Part shown: in pieces, positions 47,050 through 58,786 of the stretch
How positions within the stretch are numbered: the stretch's first letter is position 1
Layout: each line of letters opens with the position of its first letter
Assembly (NCBI GenBank): GCA_963665325.3
Contig: CAXXWS020000002.1
Span: 960,001-1,024,000 of the forward strand
Direction of reading: 5' to 3'
Length of the DNA: 64,000 nt
DNA from: Alphaproteobacteria bacterium
GTDB taxonomy: Bacteria; Pseudomonadota; Alphaproteobacteria; Bin95
Notes under the pieces: model-generated
Told to the model about the DNA's origin: nothing
The model's database searches: none
What the model saw: the letters and a program-made list of their open reading frames with translations, nothing else
Position numbers and translations under genes: made by a program

Positions 47050-48204
47050 TCAGTTGCGGCAAGGCGCCATCGCGGCGGCCATTGCCGCTCCGACCCGTTC
47101 TGCGGCGGCTTCGATGTCGCGGTCGGCGAGATGGGCGTAGCGAAGCGTCATCTGGACATCCGCATGGCCGAGCAGGCGGGAGACGACCGGCAGCGGTACG
47201 CCGTTCATAACGGCATGGCTCGCCATGGTATGACGCAGGTCATGAAGGCGCACATCCTCGATCCCGGCCTCGCGGCGGACCCGGTCCCACAGCCCGAGGG
47301 TCGAGCAGCGCGGGCGTGCCGGGTCGCATGGCGAAGGGAACACGAACAGGCTGGCCGTGCGCGGCTGCCGGTCGAGAATGGCACGGGCCTGGCTGTTGAG
47401 CGGAACCGTCCTCGGCCCCGTCTTGGAATCGCCGAGCGCCAACATCCCGTCGCGGACTTCCGACCGGCGCAGGCCCATGATCTCGCCCTTGCGGCATCCG
47501 GTGAGCAGCAGCAGCCGGATGATGTCCGCCTGCGGACGCCTGTCCTTGCGGGTCTGCGCATCCAGCACGGCGTGCAGGCGTCCGAGCTCCTCCGTGGACA
47601 GGAACCGCGTGAGCTTCGCCCGCCGGTTGAACGCGATGCCCTGTGCGGGGTTGCGTTCGATATGGCCGCAGGCGACGGCGAAATTCAGGATCTGCCGGAG
47701 GCGCCTGAGTACGTGATTGGCGTTGCCGGGCGCGGTGCGGCTGAAGCGGTCGAACCAACGCCCGATCCGCGTCTCACTCATGCGGTCCAGCGGCTTCGAC
47801 CCGAAGACCGGAAGAAGCTGGCTCGCCAGCGCATACCGGGCGGTTTGCTTCGTCGAAGACTTGTAGCGGTCGTAGTGCGCCGCCTTCCACGGCCCCGCGA
47901 CGAACTCCCGGAACAACGGGACCGGACAAGCCGCCTCGATCCTTGTCACAGGCTTCGGGTTCGCACGGCGCGCGTGGCATTCCCTGCGGACCTCCTCAAG
48001 GCTCTTCACGCCGACCGGACCGAGCGAGATGCGCTTCGTGCGCCCGCCGACGTCCAGAAGCAGCACATAGCTGCACCCGCCGGAGGGCCGCACCCGGACG
48101 CCGAGACCGGAAGCGCGGCTGTCCCAGACCGTGTATTCCCGCTCGCGAGGGCGGAGACGGGCAATGGCGGCGTCGGTGAGTTTCATCCGTTCCCTGCCTG
48201 CCAT
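47050..48204 (-). CDS. Tyrosine recombinase/integrase with arm-binding domain
   Basis: KLTDAAI...VWD...GLGVRV, LLTGCRKGEI, SKTG, HDLRH, LLGH, TLRYAH. Confidence 0.92.
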   Translation of the reverse strand: MAGRERMKLTDAAIARLRPREREYTVWDSRASGLGVRVRPSGGCSYVLLLDVGGRTKRISLGPVGVKSLEEVRRECHARRANPKPVTRIEAACPVPLFREFVAGPWKAAHYDRYKSSTKQTARYALASQLLPVFGSKPLDRMSETRIGRWFDRFSRTAPGNANHVLRRLRQILNFAVACGHIERNPAQGIAFNRRAKLTRFLSTEELGRLHAVLDAQTRKDRRPQADIIRLLLLTGCRKGEIMGLRRSEVRDGMLALGDSKTGPRTVPLNSQARAILDRQPRTASLFVFPSPCDPARPRCSTLGLWDRVRREAGIEDVRLHDLRHTMASHAVMNGVPLPVVSRLLGHADVQMTLRYAHLADRDIEAAAERVGAAMAAAMAPCRN

Positions 48205-48224
48205 CGCTCAGGCTCCCCCCAAGA

Positions 48225-50300
48225 TTACGCTTCATACTGCGCCCCAGTACTTCGTTGCCCCACAAGATCGGGGAAACGTCCTTGTTTTGAAGTCTTTGGT
48301 TGTTTGGCAGGTGGTGGATCGGGGAGTTCGAACAGGTATCCGGGTTTGTCGTTATAGGCGTGTCCGCGCAGAAGGCCGGCCCTGTGCCATCGGTATACCG
48401 TTTCGTCGGACACCCCGAGCCGGTTGGCGGCTTCCAGGGCGGTCAACAGCCCGAGTTCGCGCAGCCGTTGATGGCGGGACTTGAGAGCGTATTTGTCCCG
48501 GACCACCCTTACCAACATCGGATTGAAGGCGTGGCCGTATCCGCTTCGGTACCCGCGCTCGTTGAGGATTGTTGCGATCTCGCCGATGGTGTGGTCGTTC
48601 AACAGCCTGTCGACCTCGGCGACGACATCGTTGCTGGTCTTGTGGATTTCAGACGCGAGTGGACCCGGTTTCCAGGTAAGCTGTCGGGTCGCGCCACCGC
48701 GCAGCCGCACCCCCAGGCTGCGCGTAGCCTTGGTCAGTGTCACGTCCTCGATCAGCAGCCGCGCCATTCGCTTGCGCTCGCGGTGCGGCGTCGCCGGATC
48801 GTTCCACAGACGGGGGAAGTCACTGACCAGCGCGAGGATTCGCTCGCGTTGCCGATCGTCCAACCTCTGGCCCGGTTCAGCGCGGCTGCACTCGAGCTCG
48901 CGCTGTGCCTCGTCGAGGGCCCGAAGCTTCGCATTCCACTCCGCCTCCAGCACGTTGGCCACCATCCGGTTGTCGGGATGGGTCTGCATGAACCGCTGCC
49001 GCGCCAAGTCCGCTTCCTCGCGGGCGCGCTGAACCCGTTGAGCGCGCCACAGATCCGCCTCCCCGGCGCGTGCGGCGAGTTCGTCCTGTACCTGCAGCGC
49101 CATGTCCAGCGTGAGCGGTGTCATCAGCTCGACCAGCAGCTCGCCAATCGCTTGGTCTATGGCGCCGCCGGATATGCTCTGACAATTCCCGGCGCCCGCC
49201 GTCTCGATCTTTTCACGGGCGCACAGGTAGTAGGGGTTCAGCCCCCCTTTGCGGCTGCGATAGTGCACCGTCATGTTCCTGCCGCACACGCCGCAAATGG
49301 CCAGGCCCTGCAGCAGTGCGGGCCCCTCGCGCGGCGCACTGCGGCGCCCCGCGGCGCGCGCTTGAGCGTTGTCCCGGAGCTGGCGCTCATTCTCCTCGAA
49401 CCGCTCCCAGGTGATATAGCCCGGGTGGGCATCGCGCAGCAGGACTGTCCATTCCTCGCGTGCCAGGCGTTTCTTCTCGGCGCCCCCTCCGGGACGCCGC
49501 CGGCTGCGGCTGCGCCCGAACGCGAAAGCGCCGGCGTATCGCGGGTTGTGCAGAATCTGCAGCGCGCGCGTGAGCTTCAGAGGCTTCCAATGCAACTCGC
49601 CCCTGTGCGGCCCGCTGCGAGGACGGTACGGAAACAGCAATTTCTCGTTGTTGAAATGCCTGACCGTGGCGCTGGCCGAGCCGGTCCTGGTGAAGGTGTC
49701 GAACAGCAGGCGCAGACTGTGCTGCACCTGCTCGTCGGGGTCGAGCGCCACATTGCCGAGTGGGTCGTATACCAGCCCCACCGGCAGCGTCATCCTCAAC
49801 TCCCCGCGCTTGGCCTTGGCCAGCACTCCGCCCCGCATCCGGGCGCGCATCATGTGCAGCTCGGCCTCGCTCATGGTTCCTTTGAGCCCGAGCAGGAGCC
49901 GGTCGTTGAAGTCGCCGGGATCGTAGACGCCGTCCTCGTCGAGGATCAGCGTCTCGCTCAGGGCGCATATCTCGAGCAGGCGATGCCAATCGGTGGAGTT
50001 CCTCGCGAGCCTGGACACTTCGAGCCCGAGCACGATGCCGGCCCGGCCCATGCCGGCCTCGGCGACCAGACGCTGGAACCCCTCTCGGTCGGCGTCGGCG
50101 CCGGAGAGACCGAGATCGCTGTCGATCACGACGATGCTCTCGGTCGGCCAGCCCAGTGCCACGGCCCGCTCCCGCAGCGCGTACTGGCGCCGCGTGCTCT
50201 CGCCATGTTCGAATACCTGGCGCTGAGTAGACTGACGCACATACAGATAGGCATCGCGGCTCAGGTGGCTCGTCGTCACCTTCTGGTGAGCGGGATTCAT
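48225..50300 (-). CDS. Large serine recombinase (resolvase + recombinase + Zn ribbon + C-terminal HTH)
   Basis: YLYVRQST catalytic Ser, EVSRLARN, NPRYAG, LLQGLAICGVCG; ATG 50300. Confidence 0.92.
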   Translation of the reverse strand: MNPAHQKVTTSHLSRDAYLYVRQSTQRQVFEHGESTRRQYALRERAVALGWPTESIVVIDSDLGLSGADADREGFQRLVAEAGMGRAGIVLGLEVSRLARNSTDWHRLLEICALSETLILDEDGVYDPGDFNDRLLLGLKGTMSEAELHMMRARMRGGVLAKAKRGELRMTLPVGLVYDPLGNVALDPDEQVQHSLRLLFDTFTRTGSASATVRHFNNEKLLFPYRPRSGPHRGELHWKPLKLTRALQILHNPRYAGAFAFGRSRSRRRPGGGAEKKRLAREEWTVLLRDAHPGYITWERFEENERQLRDNAQARAAGRRSAPREGPALLQGLAICGVCGRNMTVHYRSRKGGLNPYYLCAREKIETAGAGNCQSISGGAIDQAIGELLVELMTPLTLDMALQVQDELAARAGEADLWRAQRVQRAREEADLARQRFMQTHPDNRMVANVLEAEWNAKLRALDEAQRELECSRAEPGQRLDDRQRERILALVSDFPRLWNDPATPHRERKRMARLLIEDVTLTKATRSLGVRLRGGATRQLTWKPGPLASEIHKTSNDVVAEVDRLLNDHTIGEIATILNERGYRSGYGHAFNPMLVRVVRDKYALKSRHQRLRELGLLTALEAANRLGVSDETVYRWHRAGLLRGHAYNDKPGYLFELPDPPPAKQPKTSKQGRFPDLVGQRSTGAQYEA

Positions 50301-50599
50301 GCGGCTTCCCTCCCCATATGACCGTTGAGCATGGCGATCAAAATGTCGATCGCCGACGTCTCGACCCCGGTGGGCAACGGCCCGGGCGAGGTCGCCGGGC
50401 ACAGGGCGGGCGGCGGGGCAGGCAGTTCGGCGAGGGCATGCAGCCAGGCCGCGACGCCGCGCAGCGCCACCAGGGCGATCCCGTGGCGGTCGTGGGCGGC
50501 GCCGGGCTCGACGGCATGACGGCGCATCCGCTCGTAACCGTGCCCGTAGGCGGAATGCTCCGCCGCGGCGAGCGCGGCGCAGGGCGGGTTGTGCATCAT
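50297..50599 (-). CDS. Small hypothetical protein of the LSR element
   Basis: YERMR...RGVAAW; ATGA overlaps with both neighbours. Confidence 0.7.
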   Translation of the reverse strand: MMHNPPCAALAAAEHSAYGHGYERMRRHAVEPGAAHDRHGIALVALRGVAAWLHALAELPAPPPALCPATSPGPLPTGVETSAIDILIAMLNGHMGREAA

Positions 50600-51054
50600 C
50601 GTTTTTTTCCCCGCGCGAGGGCGCGGTCGATGCTGCGGCGATGAACCGAGATGGCGAAGCGTGCGCGCACCAGCTCGACCAGGTCGGCGGCGGTCAGTTC
50701 CGGTTGTTCGCTTTTCGCCGCCCGCAGCGCTTCGACCACCTCGTCGCTGAGCTTGTGCGCCCGGCGCGGTCCCGGCCGGTCCGGCAGCAGGCCCGGCAGC
50801 CCGCCCGCCTCCCAGGCGCGCTGCGCCTGATACCAGGTGGGCCGCGAGACGCCGAAGCTCGCGGCCGCGTGGCTTACCGGCACGCCGTCCTCGCGCACGC
50901 GGCGCAGCATCTCGTACCTGACCTGGAGCAGGTCGCGCGGGTCGAAGAACGGGTTCGACAGGAACAGCTCGTCGCGCACCGCCTCCGCATTCGGGTTCAG
51001 GCAGCCGTGCTCCTTGAGGGAACGGGTCTTTGCGTCGGCGGGGCGTCTGGCCAT
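50596..51054 (-). CDS. Helix-turn-helix protein of the LSR element
   Basis: FFDPRDLLQVRYEMLR, AAASFGVSRPTWY, GLLPDRPGPRRAHKL, ISVHRRSIDR. Confidence 0.85.
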   Translation of the reverse strand: MARRPADAKTRSLKEHGCLNPNAEAVRDELFLSNPFFDPRDLLQVRYEMLRRVREDGVPVSHAAASFGVSRPTWYQAQRAWEAGGLPGLLPDRPGPRRAHKLSDEVVEALRAAKSEQPELTAADLVELVRARFAISVHRRSIDRALARGKKR

Positions 51055-51089
51055 CGCACGGGCTCCGTCGGGAAAGATATGTAAATATG

Positions 51090-51117
51090 TTTATGCACAT
51101 ATCCGCCACCGTATCAA
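51090..51117 (-). promoter_or_regulatory. Candidate promoter for the HTH-ORF-LSR operon
   Basis: TTGATA-N16-CATAAA in an AT-rich gap upstream of ATG 51054. Confidence 0.3.
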
Positions 51118-51236
51118 GTCTCGTCTTCCCCTGCACAGGAGCAAACGGTCTAAAATACCAAGCATTATACTCAATCCACACCACCTCTCCGGCCACTTCA
51201 ATGTGCTGCACTTCCCGCTTATGCGCAAAAACGATC

Positions 51237-51542
51237 TTACACACGCGGCAAAATCTCCTTGACAGTCCCCGCCCCGCCATCGCCCTCCCTCCCGGCGCCA
51301 CCGTCTCCGTCCAGGCTGTCCAGCAATGCCGCCAACGCGAGCAGATCCGAGACACGGAACGCCGACCGGCCCGACCCCACCCTCACAAACGGATCCTCGC
51401 AGGCAACGCTGGTCCAGGCTTGCCGTATGCTGCACAGTGTCCCGTCATCTCCTGTGTAGTGCACATGCCCCACCCCCATGACCGGCTTGTTCTCGACCAG
51501 TTCGAACTCACGGTCGTGAAGAGGATGAAACGGATGCGTCAC
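51237..51542 (-). CDS. DUF5372 (Y4bD/Y4pK-like) protein, with no good start in the integrated state
   Basis: VTHPFHPL...WTS...DPF...GRSAFRVSDLLAL; frame stays open to the element end at 51586. Confidence 0.75.
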   Translation of the reverse strand: MTHPFHPLHDREFELVENKPVMGVGHVHYTGDDGTLCSIRQAWTSVACEDPFVRVGSGRSAFRVSDLLALAALLDSLDGDGGAGREGDGGAGTVKEILPRV

Positions 51543-51586
51543 TCGGAAGGTCTGCCGCTCGACGCGTCGTCGAGATGCAGTTGAGT

Positions 51587-51955
51587 GCCCTGTCCCAGCG
51601 CGGTGCCGACCGTCTCGGCGGCATCCTGCACCATGGTGTCGGCAAGGTGGATGTATTTCAGCGTCGTCTCCGCCTTGCGGTGCCCAAGCATCCTGCCGAT
51701 CGCCAGCACGGTCTCGCCTTGCCTGAGCGCCAGACTCGCCACCGTGTGCCGCAGATCGTGAAGATGCGCGTCCTCAAGCTCCGCCTCGGCGCGGACCCGC
51801 TTCCAGAAACATTCCAGCCAGTTGATGCTCCGGGGGCGGTCGGCCCGCGACGCGGGGAACATCCAGCGTCCCTTCCGCTCAAGGCCGTCGAGAACGGCGC
51901 GCGCCGGCCCGGAGAGCCATACGGTCCTCGGCCCCGTCTTGCTGTCGCTAAGACG
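51587..51955 (-). pseudogene. C-terminal fragment of a second tyrosine integrase; its last codons lie at 48208-48228
   Basis: RLSDSKTGPRTV, HDLRH, MLGH, TLKYIH; N-terminal two-thirds missing. Confidence 0.85.
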
Positions 51956-52096
51956 AAAACATACCCTAAGATATTGTAAATATGGAGATATCTACTTTTA
52001 TGTAATCACACCGCATGCGGATGGCTTCAACTCCGCGACCCCTCACGTCCCCGTAGGGGGTAAGCCTTCGGGCGAGCCGTGGAGAGGACGACGATA

Positions 52097-52978
52097 TCAG
52101 CGATTGAGGGTTCGCCGCCAATCGCGTCGGAGGGGTCGGAGCCAGACATCCTTGCGGGGCTTTTCGTAGAGCTTGTCGCGGTCGTAGCGTCCCCGGCCCT
52201 GGGTGGTTCCGACATGGATCCAGCCCGACGCCCGGTAGACAGCGCCGGTGTAGCGCGGGGTCTCGACGAAGGTCTCGATGAGCACGGGGTTGGTGTTGTA
52301 GCGTTCGGTCCAGTCCCCGGGCAGGCGGCGGCGCACGATGGCGAGGATGTGCGAGCCGAGGTTGGGAATCGCGATCCACGGCAATATCAGGAACCTGGGG
52401 TTGTCCACCACCAGCGGCAGGTTCTTCTCGCGCAGCTCGGGCGCCCAGCCGATGAAGCGGTCGCGCGGGGCGAGCTTCCAGGCGGCGGTGGAGAAGCCGA
52501 GCATGGCGATGGGCCAGCCGTTGCGGTCGTGGACGGCGTAGCGCATCTGGGCGCCGACCAGGGTCTTGTATCCGAGGTAGTGGTAGCGGGCGACGAACTC
52601 GTTCCACAGCCTGCCCTCGCGAGTCTCGCGCACGACGGTGCGGAAGTCGAGCGGGCGCACCTCGTCAAGCGTCGTCGGTGCGGGGAACAGCGGCGGCTCG
52701 GTCTCCGGTCCGAAGACCATGGGCTTGGGCCGGCCCTGCTTACCCTTCGGCGGCGGCAGGGCGATCACCCCGTCGCGGTGCATGGCGAGCATGGTGACGC
52801 GGGCCATCATGTCCTTGAGGCCGCCGTCGGGCTTGAGCCAGCCGATGCGCCGGCAGAACTCCTTCGACAGGGCATGGCGGTTGAACGCCGGAGGCCCGGC
52901 GATCAGGGAGCGCAGCAGCGCCATTTCATCGGCGGTGAAGTCGCGACCGTAGTAGCGGCACTCGATGGCGCCGGTCAT
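52097..52978 (-). CDS. DUF4338 (DruA-like) protein, copy 1
   Basis: YHYLGY, AWKLAPRDRFIGW, RFLILPW, ETFVE, GAVYRASGW; ATGA overlap with the transposase stop. Confidence 0.85.
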   Translation of the reverse strand: MTGAIECRYYGRDFTADEMALLRSLIAGPPAFNRHALSKEFCRRIGWLKPDGGLKDMMARVTMLAMHRDGVIALPPPKGKQGRPKPMVFGPETEPPLFPAPTTLDEVRPLDFRTVVRETREGRLWNEFVARYHYLGYKTLVGAQMRYAVHDRNGWPIAMLGFSTAAWKLAPRDRFIGWAPELREKNLPLVVDNPRFLILPWIAIPNLGSHILAIVRRRLPGDWTERYNTNPVLIETFVETPRYTGAVYRASGWIHVGTTQGRGRYDRDKLYEKPRKDVWLRPLRRDWRRTLNR

Positions 52979-55362
52979 CCCGGGGCCGTGAACTTGAGCC
53001 TGCGCTCCTCGCTCATCGACCAGGGCAGCCAGGCCGACAAGTCGTCCGGCGGCTGGCGGCCATTTTCCGCACACGCCGCCAGCCACGCTTCCAGCCAGCG
53101 CAGCACGTCGATGCCGTTCATCGAGAGCGTGCCGACGACCGAGTACATGATCGCGGTGAACTCCGCGCCGTCCGCGCTGTTGGAACCGAAGCTCAGCCCC
53201 CGTCCGATTGCCGGAGCACGCAAGATTCTTTCGGCGACATTATTCGTGAGGGGCACTTGCGGGTGGTCGACGAAGACGCACAGCCCCTCGCGATGGTTGA
53301 GAAGCGAACGCAGCGCCTTGCCTTCGCGCGCGTGCTCCGGCAGAGCGGCCAGCTCCGCCTCGGCGTGCGCGAACAGGCGGTCGAGCGCCTTCTTCAGTTT
53401 GCGCGTCGCTTTCCTGAACGCCGCAGTCTGGCGTTTGCGGCCGGGCTTGTAATGTTCCAGCCGCGCATCGTTCAGCCGGAAGATCTCCGCGATCCGCTCG
53501 ATCCATTCCTGGCACCATTGCGTCAGCCGTTCCTGGCCGGCCGCGGCCTCGATGTAGTCGCGGCGCACATGGGACCAGCAGAAGGCGAGGATCACCTTGC
53601 CCCCGAGAAGGCGCACGAGCCGCTTGTATGCGCTGTAGCGGTCGCAGACGACGATCGTGTGGGGCAGGGCTTCGGCGAACAGCTTGAGCGCCGCCTCGGC
53701 GCTGCGGCTCGGGTCGATGTGGAAGCAGACCGCGTCGTGGCTGACCGAGGTCCACAGCCAGGCCCGGTTCGACCGATCTTCCCCGCGCAGCTCCTGCACA
53801 CGCCAGGAGGTCTCGTCGGCATGGCGCACCACCGCCTCGTTCTGGTGCGCGAGAATCGCCTCGAACAGCGGCAGGAACAGCGGCACGAAGCGCTTCAGGC
53901 TGTCGGCCAGCGTCCCCGGCGACACCGCCAGCCCCTGGGCCGACATCCATGCCGCGGTCCGGCTCAGCGGGCGCAGCCCGACACTGAGTTCGAAGAGGAA
54001 GCGCGCCCAGAAGGTGATTCCGTAGGGCGTGCCGCGGAACAGCCGCGCCACCGGGGGCGCGGACACTTCCATCGGCGAGGACGCGCACTCGCAGGTCCGG
54101 CGCATGCGTGGGCGCTGGATCACGCGCTTGTGGGCCTTGACCTCGATCTCGACGAGGGTGGATTCCTCGACGCCGTTCGCGGCGTAAGGCTCCCCGCATT
54201 GCGCGCACACGCACGCCTCCGGCGGCGGGGCGTGGACTTCAGGGCGCTCCTCGAGCCCGGGCCGCCGAGTGCGGCCGTGACCGGGCGCGCCGCGCTGCTG
54301 GCCGCGCTTGCGGTCCGAGCGCGGCTTGTTCTGCTGCTCGCTCTTGCGCCCATAGAGCCTCTTCGACAGCACCTTCCCGGTTGCACGGAGCTTCGTGGTC
54401 TCGGCTTCCAGCGCCTCGATCCGGTTCCGCGCGCCCTTCACGGTTCTGCGCAACCGGGCGTTCTCCCTCGACAGGGTCTTGATCGTTTTCTTCTGGCGCC
54501 GCGACCGCCTCAGGACGGTGCGCAGGTGAGCCACCTCGTCGAACGGCAACTTCGTCAGCGTCGCCCCGGCCGCGCGCAGCTTGGCAATCCGGGCCTTCAG
54601 CTTCTCCCGCCTGGCCTCGGACATCTTCAGCGCATAGCGCAGCCCGGACACTTCGTGGGACAGCGACCGGGACCGGATCTCGGCGTCTCTCAGGAACGTC
54701 AGCTCCCTGCGGAAGCTCAGGTTCTCGCGGGACAGCGCCTTGGCGGTTTCCCTGATGCTTTCCGACCTCTCCTTCTCCTCTTCCAACTGCTTGTTGAGCC
54801 GGGCAATCTGGGTGTACAGCGATTTGACCGACATCTCGCGTGCCGGCGCCATTCGACTGCGCCGCGCGGCCTCGGATCGCTCAGCGGCGTCCGTCGACAC
54901 GAGACCGCGCATTCGACCGATCACGATGCGCGCGGATACGATCCTCGCGCCTTCGCCCGGCTCAAGGCCGGGGGCGCACAGAAGTTTCCCGGGGGCGCAC
55001 AGAAGTTTCTCCAACTGCGCCAGCTCCGTCTGCAACAAGGGGACGGTCTTGACCGCGCGGCGCAGTTCCCTGGTCTCTTCCTCGACCGCCGTCAGCTTGC
55101 TGCGGCACTTGCCGAACCGCGACTTCCACGAACCGGCATCGCTACGGGCAGCCACTTCGGCCCAGCGCAATTCCTCAACGCGCGCCTCCGCCGCGTCCGC
55201 GCGCGCTTGTTCCCGATCCGCACGGGCGCGCTCACGCTGCAACAGCGTCAGCAAATCGCACGGCTCGTGCTCTGGCCGGGGCGCGGGAGAAAACCGTATC
55301 CCCCCGTCGACCTCGACCGGCGTCAGGTCTGTCGTGGCAAGATCAGCGTCGAGAACCACCAT
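52975..55362 (-). CDS. tnpC: IS66-family transposase with long coiled-coil N-terminus, copy 1
   Basis: YGRKSE, GQQRGAPGHGR, CAQCG, HADETSW, CDRYSAY, CWSHVRR, TNNVAERILR. Confidence 0.92.
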   Translation of the reverse strand: MVVLDADLATTDLTPVEVDGGIRFSPAPRPEHEPCDLLTLLQRERARADREQARADAAEARVEELRWAEVAARSDAGSWKSRFGKCRSKLTAVEEETRELRRAVKTVPLLQTELAQLEKLLCAPGKLLCAPGLEPGEGARIVSARIVIGRMRGLVSTDAAERSEAARRSRMAPAREMSVKSLYTQIARLNKQLEEEKERSESIRETAKALSRENLSFRRELTFLRDAEIRSRSLSHEVSGLRYALKMSEARREKLKARIAKLRAAGATLTKLPFDEVAHLRTVLRRSRRQKKTIKTLSRENARLRRTVKGARNRIEALEAETTKLRATGKVLSKRLYGRKSEQQNKPRSDRKRGQQRGAPGHGRTRRPGLEERPEVHAPPPEACVCAQCGEPYAANGVEESTLVEIEVKAHKRVIQRPRMRRTCECASSPMEVSAPPVARLFRGTPYGITFWARFLFELSVGLRPLSRTAAWMSAQGLAVSPGTLADSLKRFVPLFLPLFEAILAHQNEAVVRHADETSWRVQELRGEDRSNRAWLWTSVSHDAVCFHIDPSRSAEAALKLFAEALPHTIVVCDRYSAYKRLVRLLGGKVILAFCWSHVRRDYIEAAAGQERLTQWCQEWIERIAEIFRLNDARLEHYKPGRKRQTAAFRKATRKLKKALDRLFAHAEAELAALPEHAREGKALRSLLNHREGLCVFVDHPQVPLTNNVAERILRAPAIGRGLSFGSNSADGAEFTAIMYSVVGTLSMNGIDVLRWLEAWLAACAENGRQPPDDLSAWLPWSMSEERRLKFTAPG

Positions 55363-55520
55363 GCGCCCGACGATAGCGCAGGGTTCTCCGCGTTACCAGC
55401 CCCCTTGCGGCACCTCGATTCGCTCTGGATCACGAACCGTTGTCGGATTTCTCACGGCTCGCCCGAAGGCTTACCGTAGGGGTGTAAGCCTTCGGGCGAG
55501 CCGTGGAGAGGACGACGATA

Positions 55521-56402
55521 TCAGCGATTGAGGGTTCGCCGCCAATCGCGTCGGAGGGGTCGGAGCCAGACATCCTTGCGGGGCTTTTCGTAGAGCTTGT
55601 CGCGGTCGTAGCGTCCCCGGCCCTGGGTGGTTCCGACATGGATCCAGCCCGACGCCCGGTAGACAGCGCCGGTGTAGCGCGGGGTCTCGACGAAGGTCTC
55701 GATGAGCACGGGGTTGGTGTTGTAGCGTTCGGTCCAGTCCCCGGGCAGGCGGCGGCGCACGATGGCGAGGATGTGCGAGCCGAGGTTGGGAATCGCGATC
55801 CACGGCAATATCAGGAACCTGGGGTTGTCCACCACCAGCGGCAGGTTCTTCTCGCGCAGCTCGGGCGCCCAGCCGATGAAGCGGTCGCGCGGGGCGAGCT
55901 TCCAGGCGGCGGTGGAGAAGCCGAGCATGGCGATGGGCCAGCCGTTGCGGTCGTGGACGGCGTAGCGCATCTGGGCGCCGACCAGGGTCTTGTATCCGAG
56001 GTAGTGGTAGCGGGCGACGAACTCGTTCCACAGCCTGCCCTCGCGAGTCTCGCGCACGACGGTGCGGAAGTCGAGCGGGCGCACCTCGTCAAGCGTCGTC
56101 GGTGCGGGGAACAGCGGCGGCTCGGTCTCCGGTCCGAAGACCATGGGCTTGGGCCGGCCCTGCTTACCCTTCGGCGGCGGCAGGGCGATCACCCCGTCGC
56201 GGTGCATGGCGAGCATGGTGACGCGGGCCATCATGTCCTTGAGGCCGCCGTCGGGCTTGAGCCAGCCGATGCGCCGGCAGAACTCCTTCGACAGGGCATG
56301 GCGGTTGAACGCCGGAGGCCCGGCGATCAGGGAGCGCAGCAGCGCCATTTCATCGGCGGTGAAGTCGCGACCGTAGTAGCGGCACTCGATGGCGCCGGTC
56401 AT
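55521..56402 (-). CDS. DUF4338 (DruA-like) protein, copy 2
   Basis: Identical translation to 52097-52978. Confidence 0.85.
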   Translation of the reverse strand: MTGAIECRYYGRDFTADEMALLRSLIAGPPAFNRHALSKEFCRRIGWLKPDGGLKDMMARVTMLAMHRDGVIALPPPKGKQGRPKPMVFGPETEPPLFPAPTTLDEVRPLDFRTVVRETREGRLWNEFVARYHYLGYKTLVGAQMRYAVHDRNGWPIAMLGFSTAAWKLAPRDRFIGWAPELREKNLPLVVDNPRFLILPWIAIPNLGSHILAIVRRRLPGDWTERYNTNPVLIETFVETPRYTGAVYRASGWIHVGTTQGRGRYDRDKLYEKPRKDVWLRPLRRDWRRTLNR

Positions 56403-58786
56403 CCCGGGGCCGTGAACTTGAGCCTGCGCTCCTCGCTCATCGACCAGGGCAGCCAGGCCGACAAGTCGTCCGGCGGCTGGCGGCCATTTTCCGCACACGC
56501 CGCCAGCCACGCTTCCAGCCAGCGCAGCACGTCGATGCCGTTCATCGAGAGCGTGCCGACGACCGAGTACATGATCGCGGTGAACTCCGCGCCGTCCGCG
56601 CTGTTGGAACCGAAGCTCAGCCCCCGTCCGATTGCCGGAGCACGCAAGATTCTTTCGGCGACATTATTCGTGAGGGGCACTTGCGGGTGGTCGACGAAGA
56701 CGCACAGCCCCTCGCGATGGTTGAGAAGCGAACGCAGCGCCTTGCCTTCGCGCGCGTGCTCCGGCAGAGCGGCCAGCTCCGCCTCGGCGTGCGCGAACAG
56801 GCGGTCGAGCGCCTTCTTCAGTTTGCGCGTCGCTTTCCTGAACGCCGCAGTCTGGCGTTTGCGGCCGGGCTTGTAATGTTCCAGCCGCGCATCGTTCAGC
56901 CGGAAGATCTCCGCGATCCGCTCGATCCATTCCTGGCACCATTGCGTCAGCCGTTCCTGGCCGGCCGCGGCCTCGATGTAGTCGCGGCGCACATGGGACC
57001 AGCAGAAGGCGAGGATCACCTTGCCCCCGAGAAGGCGCACGAGCCGCTTGTATGCGCTGTAGCGGTCGCAGACGACGATCGTGTGGGGCAGGGCTTCGGC
57101 GAACAGCTTGAGCGCCGCCTCGGCGCTGCGGCTCGGGTCGATGTGGAAGCAGACCGCGTCGTGGCTGACCGAGGTCCACAGCCAGGCCCGGTTCGACCGA
57201 TCTTCCCCGCGCAGCTCCTGCACACGCCAGGAGGTCTCGTCGGCATGGCGCACCACCGCCTCGTTCTGGTGCGCGAGAATCGCCTCGAACAGCGGCAGGA
57301 ACAGCGGCACGAAGCGCTTCAGGCTGTCGGCCAGCGTCCCCGGCGACACCGCCAGCCCCTGGGCCGACATCCATGCCGCGGTCCGGCTCAGCGGGCGCAG
57401 CCCGACACTGAGTTCGAAGAGGAAGCGCGCCCAGAAGGTGATTCCGTAGGGCGTGCCGCGGAACAGCCGCGCCACCGGGGGCGCGGACACTTCCATCGGC
57501 GAGGACGCGCACTCGCAGGTCCGGCGCATGCGTGGGCGCTGGATCACGCGCTTGTGGGCCTTGACCTCGATCTCGACGAGGGTGGATTCCTCGACGCCGT
57601 TCGCGGCGTAAGGCTCCCCGCATTGCGCGCACACGCACGCCTCCGGCGGCGGGGCGTGGACTTCAGGGCGCTCCTCGAGCCCGGGCCGCCGAGTGCGGCC
57701 GTGACCGGGCGCGCCGCGCTGCTGGCCGCGCTTGCGGTCCGAGCGCGGCTTGTTCTGCTGCTCGCTCTTGCGCCCATAGAGCCTCTTCGACAGCACCTTC
57801 CCGGTTGCACGGAGCTTCGTGGTCTCGGCTTCCAGCGCCTCGATCCGGTTCCGCGCGCCCTTCACGGTTCTGCGCAACCGGGCGTTCTCCCTCGACAGGG
57901 TCTTGATCGTTTTCTTCTGGCGCCGCGACCGCCTCAGGACGGTGCGCAGGTGAGCCACCTCGTCGAACGGCAACTTCGTCAGCGTCGCCCCGGCCGCGCG
58001 CAGCTTGGCAATCCGGGCCTTCAGCTTCTCCCGCCTGGCCTCGGACATCTTCAGCGCATAGCGCAGCCCGGACACTTCGTGGGACAGCGACCGGGACCGG
58101 ATCTCGGCGTCTCTCAGGAACGTCAGCTCCCTGCGGAAGCTCAGGTTCTCGCGGGACAGCGCCTTGGCGGTTTCCCTGATGCTTTCCGACCTCTCCTTCT
58201 CCTCTTCCAACTGCTTGTTGAGCCGGGCAATCTGGGTGTACAGCGATTTGACCGACATCTCGCGTGCCGGCGCCATTCGACTGCGCCGCGCGGCCTCGGA
58301 TCGCTCAGCGGCGTCCGTCGACACGAGACCGCGCATTCGACCGATCACGATGCGCGCGGATACGATCCTCGCGCCTTCGCCCGGCTCAAGGCCGGGGGCG
58401 CACAGAAGTTTCCCGGGGGCGCACAGAAGTTTCTCCAACTGCGCCAGCTCCGTCTGCAACAAGGGGACGGTCTTGACCGCGCGGCGCAGTTCCCTGGTCT
58501 CTTCCTCGACCGCCGTCAGCTTGCTGCGGCACTTGCCGAACCGCGACTTCCACGAACCGGCATCGCTACGGGCAGCCACTTCGGCCCAGCGCAATTCCTC
58601 AACGCGCGCCTCCGCCGCGTCCGCGCGCGCTTGTTCCCGATCCGCACGGGCGCGCTCACGCTGCAACAGCGTCAGCAAATCGCACGGCTCGTGCTCTGGC
58701 CGGGGCGCGGGAGAAAACCGTATCCCCCCGTCGACCTCGACCGGCGTCAGGTCTGTCGTGGCAAGATCAGCGTCGAGAACCACCAT
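56399..58786 (-). CDS. tnpC: IS66-family transposase, copy 2
   Basis: Identical translation to 52975-55362. Confidence 0.92.
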   Translation of the reverse strand: MVVLDADLATTDLTPVEVDGGIRFSPAPRPEHEPCDLLTLLQRERARADREQARADAAEARVEELRWAEVAARSDAGSWKSRFGKCRSKLTAVEEETRELRRAVKTVPLLQTELAQLEKLLCAPGKLLCAPGLEPGEGARIVSARIVIGRMRGLVSTDAAERSEAARRSRMAPAREMSVKSLYTQIARLNKQLEEEKERSESIRETAKALSRENLSFRRELTFLRDAEIRSRSLSHEVSGLRYALKMSEARREKLKARIAKLRAAGATLTKLPFDEVAHLRTVLRRSRRQKKTIKTLSRENARLRRTVKGARNRIEALEAETTKLRATGKVLSKRLYGRKSEQQNKPRSDRKRGQQRGAPGHGRTRRPGLEERPEVHAPPPEACVCAQCGEPYAANGVEESTLVEIEVKAHKRVIQRPRMRRTCECASSPMEVSAPPVARLFRGTPYGITFWARFLFELSVGLRPLSRTAAWMSAQGLAVSPGTLADSLKRFVPLFLPLFEAILAHQNEAVVRHADETSWRVQELRGEDRSNRAWLWTSVSHDAVCFHIDPSRSAEAALKLFAEALPHTIVVCDRYSAYKRLVRLLGGKVILAFCWSHVRRDYIEAAAGQERLTQWCQEWIERIAEIFRLNDARLEHYKPGRKRQTAAFRKATRKLKKALDRLFAHAEAELAALPEHAREGKALRSLLNHREGLCVFVDHPQVPLTNNVAERILRAPAIGRGLSFGSNSADGAEFTAIMYSVVGTLSMNGIDVLRWLEAWLAACAENGRQPPDDLSAWLPWSMSEERRLKFTAPG

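What the first reader, a model, noticed from the sequence alone, without database searches (positions are those of the whole stretch)
48229..51586. Circularisation creates the start codon of DUF5372: an excision-activated gene
Seen: joining the element ends (attP, minus strand) gives GGGGCGCAGT ATG AAG CAC TCA ACT GCA TCT CGA CGA CGC GTC GAG CGG CAG ACC TTC CGA GTG ACG CAT CCG. The ATG at 48233-35, inside the LSR 3' end, becomes in frame with VTHPFHPL (MKHSTASRRRVERQTFRVTHPF...) and downstream of the LSR operon. When integrated, DUF5372 has only an SD-less GTG. Inference: DUF5372 is made only from the circle and may be a directionality, targeting or integration cofactor, forming a topology-sensing switch.
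Basis: partly seen in the sequence, partly recalled or inferred. Interest (0 to 1): 0.85.

Follow-up and report, generated by a model that had tools for sequence, protein, structure and literature searches.

The report
Mobile element gene completed by circularisation
A small jumping-gene element keeps the ribosome-binding site and start codon of one of its genes at one end and the rest of that gene at the other end, so the complete gene exists only when the element has cut itself out and closed into a circle.

Summary
Six empty paralogous sites in the same genome and 31 unique insertion events elsewhere place the crossover at a 2-bp core: TG at 51597-96 and 48221-20. The element is 3374 bp plus one core copy.

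Joining the ends puts ATG 48235-33 exactly 24 nt before the left-end motif TCAACTGCA and in frame with DUF5372. This geometry holds in 31 of 31 unique events, all without stops. One metagenome contig (L056) and two database proteins carry the joined form naturally.

The 'GTG start' behaves as a sense Val/Ile codon: GTG in 34 of 48 loci, non-start codons in 14, ATG in none. The element's only conserved promoter lies downstream of DUF5372 and drives HTH-P99-LSR out towards the right end.

DUF5372 therefore reads as the fourth cistron of an operon that is complete only in the circle. A complex model docks it on the recombinase zinc-ribbon/coiled-coil base (0.65 against controls of 0.00).

Still untested: expression, a circle in this genome, and the direction of the effect. 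Some lineages carry internal start codons. I class this as a new variant of known state-dependent mobile-element switches. It is also the first functional lead for DUF5372 (Y4bD/Y4pK).

The parts
51598..51862 (-). Left flank (attB-derived). It is the 3' part of a tyrosine recombinase gene, itself cut upstream by another insertion near 51966. Its reading frame runs on into the element and stops at TGA 51541-51539.
   Evidence: Pfam Phage_integrase E 5.3e-10. Homologous to six uninterrupted paralogous sites in the own genome. Stop position checked.
51596..51597 (-). Crossover (core) dinucleotide TG, the attL copy.
   Evidence: Identical to the attR copy. Positions 12-13 are the only positions of near-universal attL/attR identity: 22 and 21 of 23, and 28 of 31 unique events.
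51543..51595 (-). Left (P') arm of the element. It holds the att motif TCAACTGCA (51584-51576). In the DUF5372 frame it encodes the start-less N-terminal extension, codons -18 to -1.
   Evidence: Conserved in-frame peptide x-S-T-A-x4-[VIM]-E-x3-F-R in all loci listed. Frame 0 has no stop in 0 of 29 unique arms. The only two indels seen are multiples of 3 (L052 -3, L061 +3).
51237..51542 (-). DUF5372 core (101 codons from GTG 51542, stop TAA 51239-51237).
   Evidence: PF17342, 75 bits against a cut-off of 25, profile positions 1-77 of 78. Strong third-position variation shows purifying selection. 204 database homologues at E <= 0.001 among 224 candidates.
51090..51117 (-). Conserved sigma-70-like promoter of the HTH-P99-LSR operon: TTGATA (51117-51112), a 16-nt spacer ending in TG, then CATAAA (51095-51090). 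An AT-rich near-palindrome follows.
   Evidence: TTGA..N16-17..[CT]ATAA[AT] is conserved in the alignment of 19 lineages. Coordinates checked. The strict consensus scanner did not report it.
50596..51054 (-). HTH protein (152 aa). Its stop TGA overlaps the next ATG (ATGA).
   Evidence: Pfam HTH_32/23/28/29. Resembles the N-terminal HTH part of IS630/IS481 transposases, below the curated cut-offs. Syntenic in 35 of 42 related loci.
50297..50599 (-). P99: a 100-aa protein of no known family. Its start overlaps the HTH stop and its stop overlaps the recombinase start (ATGA both times).
   Evidence: No Pfam or NCBIfam hit and no usable Atlas hit. tblastn-conserved in 32 of 42 loci. Overlaps checked.
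48225..50300 (-). Large serine recombinase (691 aa).
   Evidence: Pfam Resolvase, Recombinase and Zn_ribbon_recom. Mean column identity 70% over 18 lineages. Distant match to the SPbeta integrase YokA in the PDB.
48222..48250 (-). Right (P) arm. It holds a weak SD-like GGGG (48245-48242), the ATG at 48235-48233, and the four complete codons (plus two bases of the fifth) that follow it, up to the core.
   Evidence: The family consensus GGAGGTG[CT]AGT-ATG-AAGC[AG]TA is conserved whatever frame or position the recombinase stop takes. The start is ATG in 29 and GTG in 2 of 31 unique events. SD duplex energy is -4.7 kcal/mol in the window; the family median is -6.9 against -3.0 at the V codon.
48220..48221 (-). 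Crossover (core) dinucleotide TG, the attR copy.
47050..48204 (-). Right flank (attB-derived): the next tyrosine recombinase gene (384 aa).
   Evidence: Pfam Phage_integrase, Phage_int_M and Arm-DNA-bind_3. Adjacent to the left-flank homologue in six empty paralogous sites.

Best explanation
Window 51597-48220 (minus strand) is an intact, IS-like mobile element of 3374 bp plus a 2-bp core, moved by a large serine recombinase (LSR). It sits between two tyrosine recombinase genes.

Operon layout. The element's four genes form one operon that is circularly permuted by its own attachment site:
- An internal conserved promoter drives HTH, P99 and the LSR, which are joined by ATGA stop/start overlaps.
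- Transcription runs out through the right end.
- The right end carries a Shine-Dalgarno-like motif, an ATG and four complete codons (plus two bases of a fifth).
- The left end carries the rest of the DUF5372 reading frame, with no promoter and no conserved start of its own.

The switch. Excision by the LSR joins the ends at the 2-bp core. DUF5372 then becomes the fourth, translationally coupled cistron, 124 codons long in the window. Integration splits it again. The full-length, efficiently expressed gene therefore exists only in the excised (or tandem) form.

Likely role. The protein most likely binds the LSR at the base of its coiled-coil, in the zinc-ribbon domain. That is where recombination directionality factors act.

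Direction of the effect. It is made after excision, and some intact lineages have no possible start in the integrated state. I therefore infer that it acts on the circle or the freshly integrated copy, favouring integration or blocking re-excision, rather than triggering excision.

What is shown and what is inferred:
- Shown: the boundaries, the geometry, their conservation, natural joined forms, and the promoter position.
- Inferred: use of the joint ATG, binding to the LSR, and the direction of the effect.
For: (1) Boundaries.
- Six empty paralogous sites lie in the own genome.
- The same core dinucleotide occurs at both ends in 28 of 31 unique events.
- In the sliding control, offset 0 gives 21 of 23 and other offsets give 0-8 of 23.
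- Two MAG contigs, L043 and L053, begin and end exactly at core TT.

(2) The joint reading frame.
- It is in frame and open in 31 of 31 unique events.
- Among 18 unique joints, frame 0 has stops in 0, frame +1 in 15 and frame +2 in 18.

(3) Natural joined forms.
- Metagenome contig L056 reads LSR C-terminus, then ATGA, then 24 nt, then TCAACTGCA, then a complete 102-aa DUF5372. Its V codon is GTC.
- Proteins P0122 and P0137 have the same N-terminal build.
- Integrated-form relatives diverge from them exactly at codon 6, where the core lies.

(4) The putative GTG start behaves as a sense codon.
- Over 48 loci it is GTG 34, GTC 5, GTA 3, ATC 3, ATA 2, GTT 1 and ATG 0.
- 8 of 37 unique left arms have no in-frame ATG/GTG/TTG at all. 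Five of these (L019, L041, L052, L053, L061) have an intact LSR.
- RefSeq-annotated starts in isolates scatter over codons -18, -10, -9, -4, -2 and -2.

(5) Operon grammar.
- ATGA overlaps join HTH/P99 and P99/LSR in the window.
- In 7 lineages the LSR stop overlaps the right-end ATG in the same ATGA form.
- The SD is stronger at the joint ATG than at the V codon: median -6.9 against -3.0 kcal/mol.

(6) The conserved promoter lies between DUF5372 and HTH.

(7) Complex model of LSR with DUF5372.
- Score 0.65; best of 3 controls 0.00.
- The mark was reached by 58 of 80 solved complexes and by 2 of 110 mismatched pairs.
- The runs agree in at least 85% of contacts, and partner pLDDT is at least 63.
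- My own alignments were used, so the calibration counts hold only roughly.
- Interface: LSR 335-340, 392-412, 480-516 and 530-540; DUF5372 3-8 and 50-78.
Against: - No expression data exist, and no circle junction was seen for this genome.
- The SD-like GGAGGTGCAGT motif also occurs, reverse-complemented, in the left arm of several lineages. One example is L021: ACTGCACCTCC on the left against GGAGGTGTAGT on the right. Its conservation, and perhaps that of the ATG, may therefore reflect recombinase binding.
- Once the att geometry is fixed, the frame is inherited. The 31 events are thus not 31 independent tests.
- The N-terminal extension shows no aggregate codon periodicity. Mean entropy by codon position is about 0.97, 1.10 and 1.09. 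TCAACTGCA is conserved at all three codon positions, as expected of a DNA site.
- Frame +1 of the left arm is also mostly open: stops in 5 of 29, against 0 of 29 for frame 0.
- 29 of 37 unique left arms keep some in-frame GTG/TTG/ATG. Three have an ATG at -7 or -10. In the L056 subfamily, many database proteins start 5-7 codons before the motif.
- In the window, the GTG overlaps the stop of the upstream fused ORF (GTGA), which could allow coupled translation in the integrated state.
- An LSR-RDF complex has been solved (SPbeta YokA-YotN fusions). The docking site could therefore owe something to the model's memory.
- The regular expression used to find right ends accepts only ATG or GTG. However, every complete LSR 3' end printed raw shows the motif, except L051, where it lies about 515 nt downstream.
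Confidence: 0.6

Rival explanations
1. DUF5372 is translated in the integrated state from GTG 51542. Ribosomes that terminate at the overlapping TGA of the upstream fused tyrosine-recombinase ORF (GTGA) would re-initiate there, or read-through transcripts would be used. On this view the right-end ATG and its SD-like motif are simply part of the recombinase-binding half-site, and the in-frame joint is an inherited accident of att geometry.
For: - The GTGA overlap is present in the window.
- The V codon is GTG in 34 of 48 loci.
- The SD-like motif is mirrored in the left arm.
- TCAACTGCA is conserved as DNA, at all codon positions, and the N-terminal extension shows no aggregate codon periodicity.
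- Frame +1 of the left arm is open in 24 of 29 unique arms, so an incoming ORF would often end at this codon.
Against: - The codon is never ATG (0 of 48). In 14 of 48 loci it is a non-start Val or Ile codon, including five elements with an intact LSR and no other in-frame start.
- DUF5372 stays under purifying selection in those lineages: its ORFs are intact at 82-101 codons.
- The only variant of the right-end ATG is GTG, another start codon (2 of 31).
- The LSR stop overlaps the right-end ATG as ATGA in 7 lineages.
- Natural joined ORFs exist.
- Both indels between the att motif and the conserved domain are multiples of 3.
- The SD before the GTG is weak: -2.8 kcal/mol in the window.
Confidence: 0.2
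2. DUF5372 is a classical recombination directionality factor needed for excision. A trickle from the integrated copy (GTG start, outside transcription) triggers rare excision. The strong expression from the circle then acts in trans on other copies, or merely delays reintegration.
For: - The predicted docking site is the zinc-ribbon/coiled-coil base. Judging from the title of PMC5814800 (search listing), phiC31 gp3 binds its integrase there.
- Several genomes carry many copies, so trans action is possible. One example is six loci from one chromosome: L027, L031-L034 and L050.
Against: - Five intact elements have no start codon available in the integrated state. In those lineages the protein cannot be required for excision.
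- An excision factor over-produced by a non-replicating circle would block its own reintegration. This rests on the known property of RDFs that they inhibit attP x attB, which I state from recall.
Confidence: 0.12
3. Both forms are made and differ in function. A short form comes from internal starts in the integrated state, and a long form carrying the 23-residue leader comes from the circle. The leader changes activity or stability, by analogy with integration-dependent immunity.
For: - Internal in-frame starts are present in 29 of 37 unique left arms.
- DUF5372 residues 3-8 (HPFHPL), which directly follow the leader, lie in the predicted interface.
Against: The leader is poorly conserved outside the att-encoded S-T-A. 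The internal starts are scattered rather than conserved in position.
Confidence: 0.06

Closest known systems
Tn4451/Tn4453 and the large resolvase TnpX (Lyras and Rood 2000; I saw only the reference-list entry in PMC13023037)
   Same: A transposon moved by a large serine recombinase through a circular intermediate with a 2-bp core. A gene at the very end of the element is switched on only when the ends are joined.
   Different: There the joint builds a promoter for the recombinase gene itself. Here the recombinase has its own internal promoter. What is rebuilt is the ribosome-binding site, the start codon and the first five codons of an accessory gene.
SSV-type 'suicidal' integrases of archaeal viruses and plasmids (passages read in PMC8371274)
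   Same: The attachment site lies inside one of the element's own genes. That gene is therefore whole only in the circular form and is fragmented on integration.
   Different: There the split gene is the tyrosine integrase itself, and that review states such recombinases are found only in archaea. Here the element is bacterial, uses a serine recombinase, keeps the recombinase intact, and splits an accessory gene five codons after its start.
Integration-dependent immunity of mycobacteriophage BPs and relatives (only the start of the abstract of PMC4557955 was seen; the rest is recalled)
   Same: attP lies within a regulatory gene, so the integrated and the free states encode different products. 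This is a topology-sensing switch.
   Different: As I recall it, integration there removes the 3' end of the repressor and so changes its stability. Here integration removes the translation start at the 5' end.
Promoters active only in the excised state: Pcirc of ICEclc and P3'end of ICEKp1 (Discussion passage of PMC13023037)
   Same: A signal at one end of the element drives a gene at the other end only after circularisation.
   Different: Those cases act at the level of transcription only, on the integrase gene of large conjugative elements.
Recombination directionality factors of serine integrases, such as phiC31 gp3 (title of PMC5814800) and SPbeta YotN fused to YokA in PDB 9dxd
   Same: A small protein predicted to dock on the zinc-ribbon/coiled-coil base of the recombinase.
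   Different: There is no sequence similarity to any PDB chain (best E 0.032, to designed repeat proteins) and no fold match. Its gene layout implies that it acts after excision, not before.

Membership tests
Large serine recombinase | N-terminal resolvase catalytic domain, followed by a recombinase domain and a zinc beta-ribbon domain | tested here: met
   PF00239 E 1.6e-20, PF07508 E 1.3e-14 and PF13408 E 2.3e-10, in that order. The R-Q-S motif is invariant over 18 lineages.
Large serine recombinase | Coiled-coil motif inserted in the zinc-ribbon domain | not tested
   Inferred only from the helical, heptad-like stretch at about residues 395-500. No coiled-coil predictor was run.
Serine-recombinase attachment sites | Crossover at a central dinucleotide that is identical in attL and attR, flanked by imperfect inverted-repeat arms | tested here: met
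   The dinucleotide is identical in 28 of 31 unique events, and the control offsets give 0-8 of 23. GCAGT sits 15-19 nt from the core on both arms (read by eye).
DUF5372 (PF17342; RefSeq name 'Y4bD/Y4pK family') | Match to the Pfam profile above the gathering score | tested here: met
   75 bits against a cut-off of 25, profile positions 1-77 of 78. The RefSeq names were seen.
Recombination directionality factor | Binds the cognate serine integrase | tested here: inconclusive
   The model supports binding but does not show it: score 0.65, best of 3 controls 0.00. The mark was reached by 58 of 80 solved complexes and 2 of 110 mismatched pairs. The runs agree in at least 85% of contacts, and partner pLDDT is at least 63. 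My own alignments were used.
Recombination directionality factor | Stimulates attL x attR and inhibits attP x attB | not testable with these tools
   This needs recombination assays. The gene layout argues against a role before excision.
Junction-promoter elements (Tn4451 type, IS circles) | The -35 and -10 promoter boxes sit on opposite ends and are assembled at the joint | tested here: not met
   Both boxes of the conserved promoter lie inside the element, upstream of HTH. The joint assembles a translation start with its ORF instead.
Suicidal (SSV-type) integrase elements | attP lies inside the recombinase gene | tested here: not met
   The recombinase ORF (50300-48225) is complete in the integrated state. 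Its stop lies 3 nt before the core.

The most novel reading that the evidence does not exclude
DUF5372 would be a 'reverse' directionality factor. It would be a recombinase-binding protein that exists only while the element is an excised circle, because excision itself assembles its ribosome-binding site and start codon. It would drive integration or forbid re-excision, and integration would then destroy its gene.

This would make a self-resetting topological toggle. It would define a previously undescribed, multi-phylum class of autonomous serine-recombinase transposons, which includes the Y4bD/Y4pK genes of rhizobial plasmids.
Probability: 0.3. Interest if true: 0.85.

Novelty: new variant of a known kind. 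Interest (0 to 1): 0.74.

Why it matters
How transposon-like serine-recombinase elements choose between excision and integration without a phage-style lytic programme is poorly understood. This element suggests a purely structural answer. The attachment site sits five codons into an accessory gene, so the DNA topology itself decides whether the gene has a ribosome-binding site, a start codon and a promoter.

The finding gives a first testable function to a domain of unknown function. No paper in the held library mentions DUF5372, and none of the five papers matched for the y4bD/y4pK gene names concerns these genes.

It also defines exact ends, the core dinucleotide and half-site motifs for a compact four-gene integration system. 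That system occurs in Alpha-, Beta- and Gammaproteobacteria, Actinomycetota, Chloroflexota, Acidobacteria and other groups.

It explains why gene callers disagree on the start of this gene. Finally, it points to a possible new kind of cofactor for serine integrases, which are widely used as genome-engineering tools.

Tried and rejected
1. Empty sites and the shared dinucleotide put the crossover at TG 51597-96 / 48221-20. I also considered a crossover within the G-run that would give 15 extra nt. I dropped it because only the 24-nt spacing gives a shared dinucleotide across the family.

2. Circle junction in public data.
- The look-up of sequencing runs listed 21 runs, all held as Logan contigs. 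No RNA holder was listed.
- I laid 4 of the 21 runs (X1, X2, X3, X5). They gave only 'skip' joints with other letters in between. These are the paralogous empty tyrosine-recombinase sites. No go-back joint appeared.
- Contigs drop rare variants, so this says nothing about whether circles exist.

3. Pattern scans for the joined form.
- Metagenome contigs: 1 hit, L056.
- Viral contigs: 0 hits.
- Five genomes that hold related loci, three of them with several copies: 0 hits.

4. Codon periodicity of the N-terminal extension as a whole showed no signal. Only single codons (-7, -4, -2) look coding-like.

5. Fold of DUF5372.
The second, from 136 sequences, was usable (pLDDT 79).
- Foldseek against the PDB gave no match at E <= 0.001. 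The weak top rows are ribosomal protein chains and a chromo shadow domain.

6. P99 has no family in Pfam or NCBIfam, and the protein Atlas gave no usable hit.

7. Flanking ORFs of L021. Six ORFs were scanned to name the target gene of another lineage. Five had no Pfam family and one was an AAA_25 protein. That target remains unnamed.

8. The strict promoter scanner found nothing in 48000-51900. The promoter rests on conservation.

9. Literature.
- 'DUF5372': 0 papers.
- y4bD/y4pK/y4bA/y4pH: 5 papers, none relevant.
- Searches showed no described case, among the rows listed, of a serine-recombinase element whose accessory gene start is rebuilt at the joint.
- Supplementary files were not consulted.

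10. Closed or missing tools: the search of earlier findings, and the fold libraries pdb_via_wide and pdb_via.

Full report
ANATOMY.

Read on the minus strand, the region contains the following, in order:
- The 3' part of a tyrosine recombinase gene (51862-51598).
- DUF5372 (GTG 51542 to TAA 51237; PF17342, E 5e-21).
- A 182-nt spacer.
- An HTH protein (51054-50596).
- A 100-aa protein of no known family, 'P99' (50599-50297).
- A 691-aa large serine recombinase, LSR (50300-48225).
- A complete 384-aa tyrosine recombinase gene (48204-47050).

The HTH/P99 and P99/LSR junctions are both ATGA stop/start overlaps.

BOUNDARIES.

A search of the window's own genome with 51900-48000 found six places where the first ~306 and the last ~215 bases of the query lie side by side. 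These are uninterrupted pairs of tyrosine recombinase genes. I aligned five of the six against both junctions. The insert is therefore real and about 3.38 kb long.

Its exact ends come from the family comparison:
- The search for related loci returned 42 loci.
- 32 of the 42 carry DUF5372-HTH-P99-LSR in the same order and spacing. 35 of the 42 carry at least DUF5372, HTH and LSR.
- Every complete LSR 3' end is followed by GGAGGTG[CT]AGT-ATG-AAGC[AG]TA or a close variant.
- Every left end carries TCAACTGCA 14 codons before the V of VTHPFHPL.

When the 24 nt after the ATG are laid over the 24 nt before TCAACTGCA, identity between attR and attL peaks at positions 12 and 13 (22 and 21 of 23 unique events). 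The dinucleotide matches in 21 of 23 at this register, against 0-8 of 23 when the register is slid by 1-6 nt.

After adding L036, L051 and the plasmid copies, the count is 28 of 31 unique events. The exceptions are L031, L033 and L060. Two of these lie in a genome with several copies; the flanks may have been exchanged between copies.

The core differs between lineages: TT in 12, CG in 7, TG in 3, AC in 3, and TC, CT and AG in one each. This is what is expected if the recombinase does not read the core but requires the two partners to match.

Two MAG contigs of 3333 and 3325 bp (L043, L053) begin and end exactly on TT.

In the window the core is TG, at 51597-96 and 48221-20. The element proper is 51595-48222, or 3374 bp.

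THE JOINT.

The ATG-to-motif spacing is fixed at 24 nt, which is 8 codons. The motif-to-domain spacing is 14 codons. End-joining therefore places the right-end ATG in frame with DUF5372.
- All 31 unique reconstructed joints are in frame and free of stops.
- Among 18 unique joints, the other two frames carry stops in 15 and in 18.
- The only two length changes between the att motif and the domain are -3 nt (L052) and +3 nt (L061).

The joined form also occurs naturally. A pattern scan of metagenome contigs found one contig (L056, 1068 bp). In it an LSR C-terminus of this family ends in TGA overlapping the ATG. Then come 24 nt, TCAACTGCA and a complete 102-residue DUF5372 that begins MKHAPSTALSTAAHTGEVTSPVRVTHPFHPL. 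The V codon there is GTC.

A protein search with that ORF found two more proteins of the same build, on ~1-kb contigs from other sources (P0122 and P0137). Integrated-form relatives diverge from them exactly at codon 6, where the core lies.

IS THE GTG A START?

In the window it is the only in-frame ATG/GTG/TTG in 78 open codons. Its SD pairing is weak at -2.8 kcal/mol.

Across 48 loci the codon is GTG 34, GTC 5, GTA 3, ATC 3, ATA 2, GTT 1 and ATG 0. That is the spectrum of a sense Val/Ile codon.

Of 37 unique left arms, 8 have no canonical in-frame start at all. Five of these belong to elements with an intact LSR.

Where RefSeq annotates the gene in cultured strains, the chosen starts fall at codons -18, -10, -9, -4, -2 and -2.

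The right-end start, by contrast, sits at one fixed position. It is ATG in 29 and GTG in 2 of 31 events, with a median SD pairing of -6.9 against -3.0 kcal/mol at the V codon. The search expression accepted only ATG or GTG. However, every complete LSR 3' end printed raw shows the motif, except L051, where it lies about 515 nt downstream.

In seven lineages the LSR stop overlaps this ATG as ATGA. That is the same grammar as the two upstream gene junctions.

TRANSCRIPTION.

An alignment of the DUF5372-HTH spacer from 19 lineages shows a conserved TTGA-N16/17-[CT]ATAA[AT] promoter, followed by a near-palindrome and a GGAG before the HTH start. In the window the boxes are at 51117-51112 and 51095-51090.

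DUF5372 lies upstream of this promoter, with only about 55 bp of element DNA before it. In the integrated state it can therefore be transcribed only from outside the element. In the circle it is the last gene of the operon.

FUNCTION.
- The AlphaFold model built from 136 sequences (pLDDT 79) shows three strands and two helices. It has no PDB fold match at E <= 0.001 and no PDB sequence relative.
- A complex prediction of the LSR with DUF5372 supports binding but does not show it. The score is 0.65 and the best of 3 controls is 0.00. The mark was reached by 58 of 80 solved complexes and by 2 of 110 mismatched pairs. The runs agree in at least 85% of contacts, and partner pLDDT is at least 63. 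My own alignments were used, so the calibration counts hold only roughly.
- The interface covers LSR residues 335-340, 392-412, 480-516 and 530-540, which I read as the zinc ribbon and the foot of the coiled-coil. On DUF5372 it covers the HPFHPL motif and the C-terminal helices.
- This is the region where directionality factors are reported to act (title of PMC5814800, seen in the listing). LSR-RDF structures have been solved, so part of the model's confidence may be memory of those.
- Several intact lineages cannot start translation in the integrated state. I therefore infer a role after excision: promoting integration or preventing re-excision. This step is inference only.

WEAKNESSES.
- There are no expression data, and no circle was seen for this genome. 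Only Logan contigs were available.
- The SD-like motif is mirrored in the left arm, so it is at least partly a recombinase-binding determinant.
- The S-T-A codons are conserved as DNA, and the leader as a whole lacks codon periodicity.
- The frame is inherited with the att geometry.
- Most left arms retain a GTG, and a few have an ATG.
- In the window, the GTG overlaps the stop of the upstream fused ORF.

COMPARISON WITH WHAT IS KNOWN.

State-dependent expression through circularisation is known at the promoter level:
- Tn4451 and TnpX (reference entry seen).
- ICEclc and ICEKp1 (passage read).

Genes split by their own attP are known too:
- Archaeal 'suicidal' integrases (passages read).
- Integration-dependent immunity (start of an abstract seen).

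I found no description of a serine-recombinase element in which the ribosome-binding site and start codon of an accessory gene are separated from its body by the att site. I also found no paper on DUF5372 or Y4bD/Y4pK (held library only, supplements not seen).

I therefore class this as a new variant of a known kind. It occurs in cultured Bradyrhizobium, Mesorhizobium, Paraburkholderia, Aromatoleum and Rhodococcus plasmids, where it can be tested directly.

Noticed in passing
window 47050-48204 and 51598-51862; own-genome loci L002-L008: The element sits between two adjacent tyrosine recombinase genes. The genome holds six uninterrupted paralogous copies of this gene pair. The same lineage of the element sits at the 3' end of a tyrosine recombinase gene in L014, L026, L030, L038 and L048, always in the same orientation. 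One mobile element thus seems to target another.
   Followed up: partly
own genome C1:1201573-1201692 (L010): A remnant of a second DUF5372 element lies at the 3' end of another tyrosine recombinase gene. It keeps about 40 codons, has ATA in place of the V codon and contains one TGA. No recombinase gene follows it.
   Followed up: partly
window 52079-53452 and 55503-56876; 52975-55362: Two identical copies of a 329-aa protein with a DruA-like domain (PF14236, E 3.1e-39) lie 3.4 kb apart. An IS66-family transposase gene (PF03050, E 3.8e-52) lies between them and overlaps the first copy. The end of this block, near 51966, truncates the tyrosine recombinase gene upstream of the element.
   Followed up: partly
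window 51050-51125: An AT-rich near-palindrome (ATGTGCATAAACATATTTACAT) overlaps the -10 box of the conserved operon promoter. It is conserved across lineages. It may be an operator for the HTH protein.
   Followed up: no
L051:9270-9800: One lineage, from a Rhodobacterales MAG, carries an extra ORF of about 100 codons between the recombinase stop and the right end. The right-end ATG, the core TT and the in-frame joint are all kept.
   Followed up: partly
L031, L033, L060: Three copies have different dinucleotides at their two ends. L031 and L033 lie in a genome with several copies. This may mean flanks have been exchanged between copies.
   Followed up: no
L021-L024, L027, L031-L034, L050: In two MAGs with several copies, 2-3 kb of flank is also repeated at 88-100% identity. 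Either the target is itself a repeated element or larger units were duplicated. The six flanking ORFs I scanned gave no informative Pfam family.
   Followed up: partly
L046: This copy is decaying. DUF5372 has a stop at codon 28 and the recombinase frame is broken at 485 residues, yet both end motifs and the core AG are intact.
   Followed up: no
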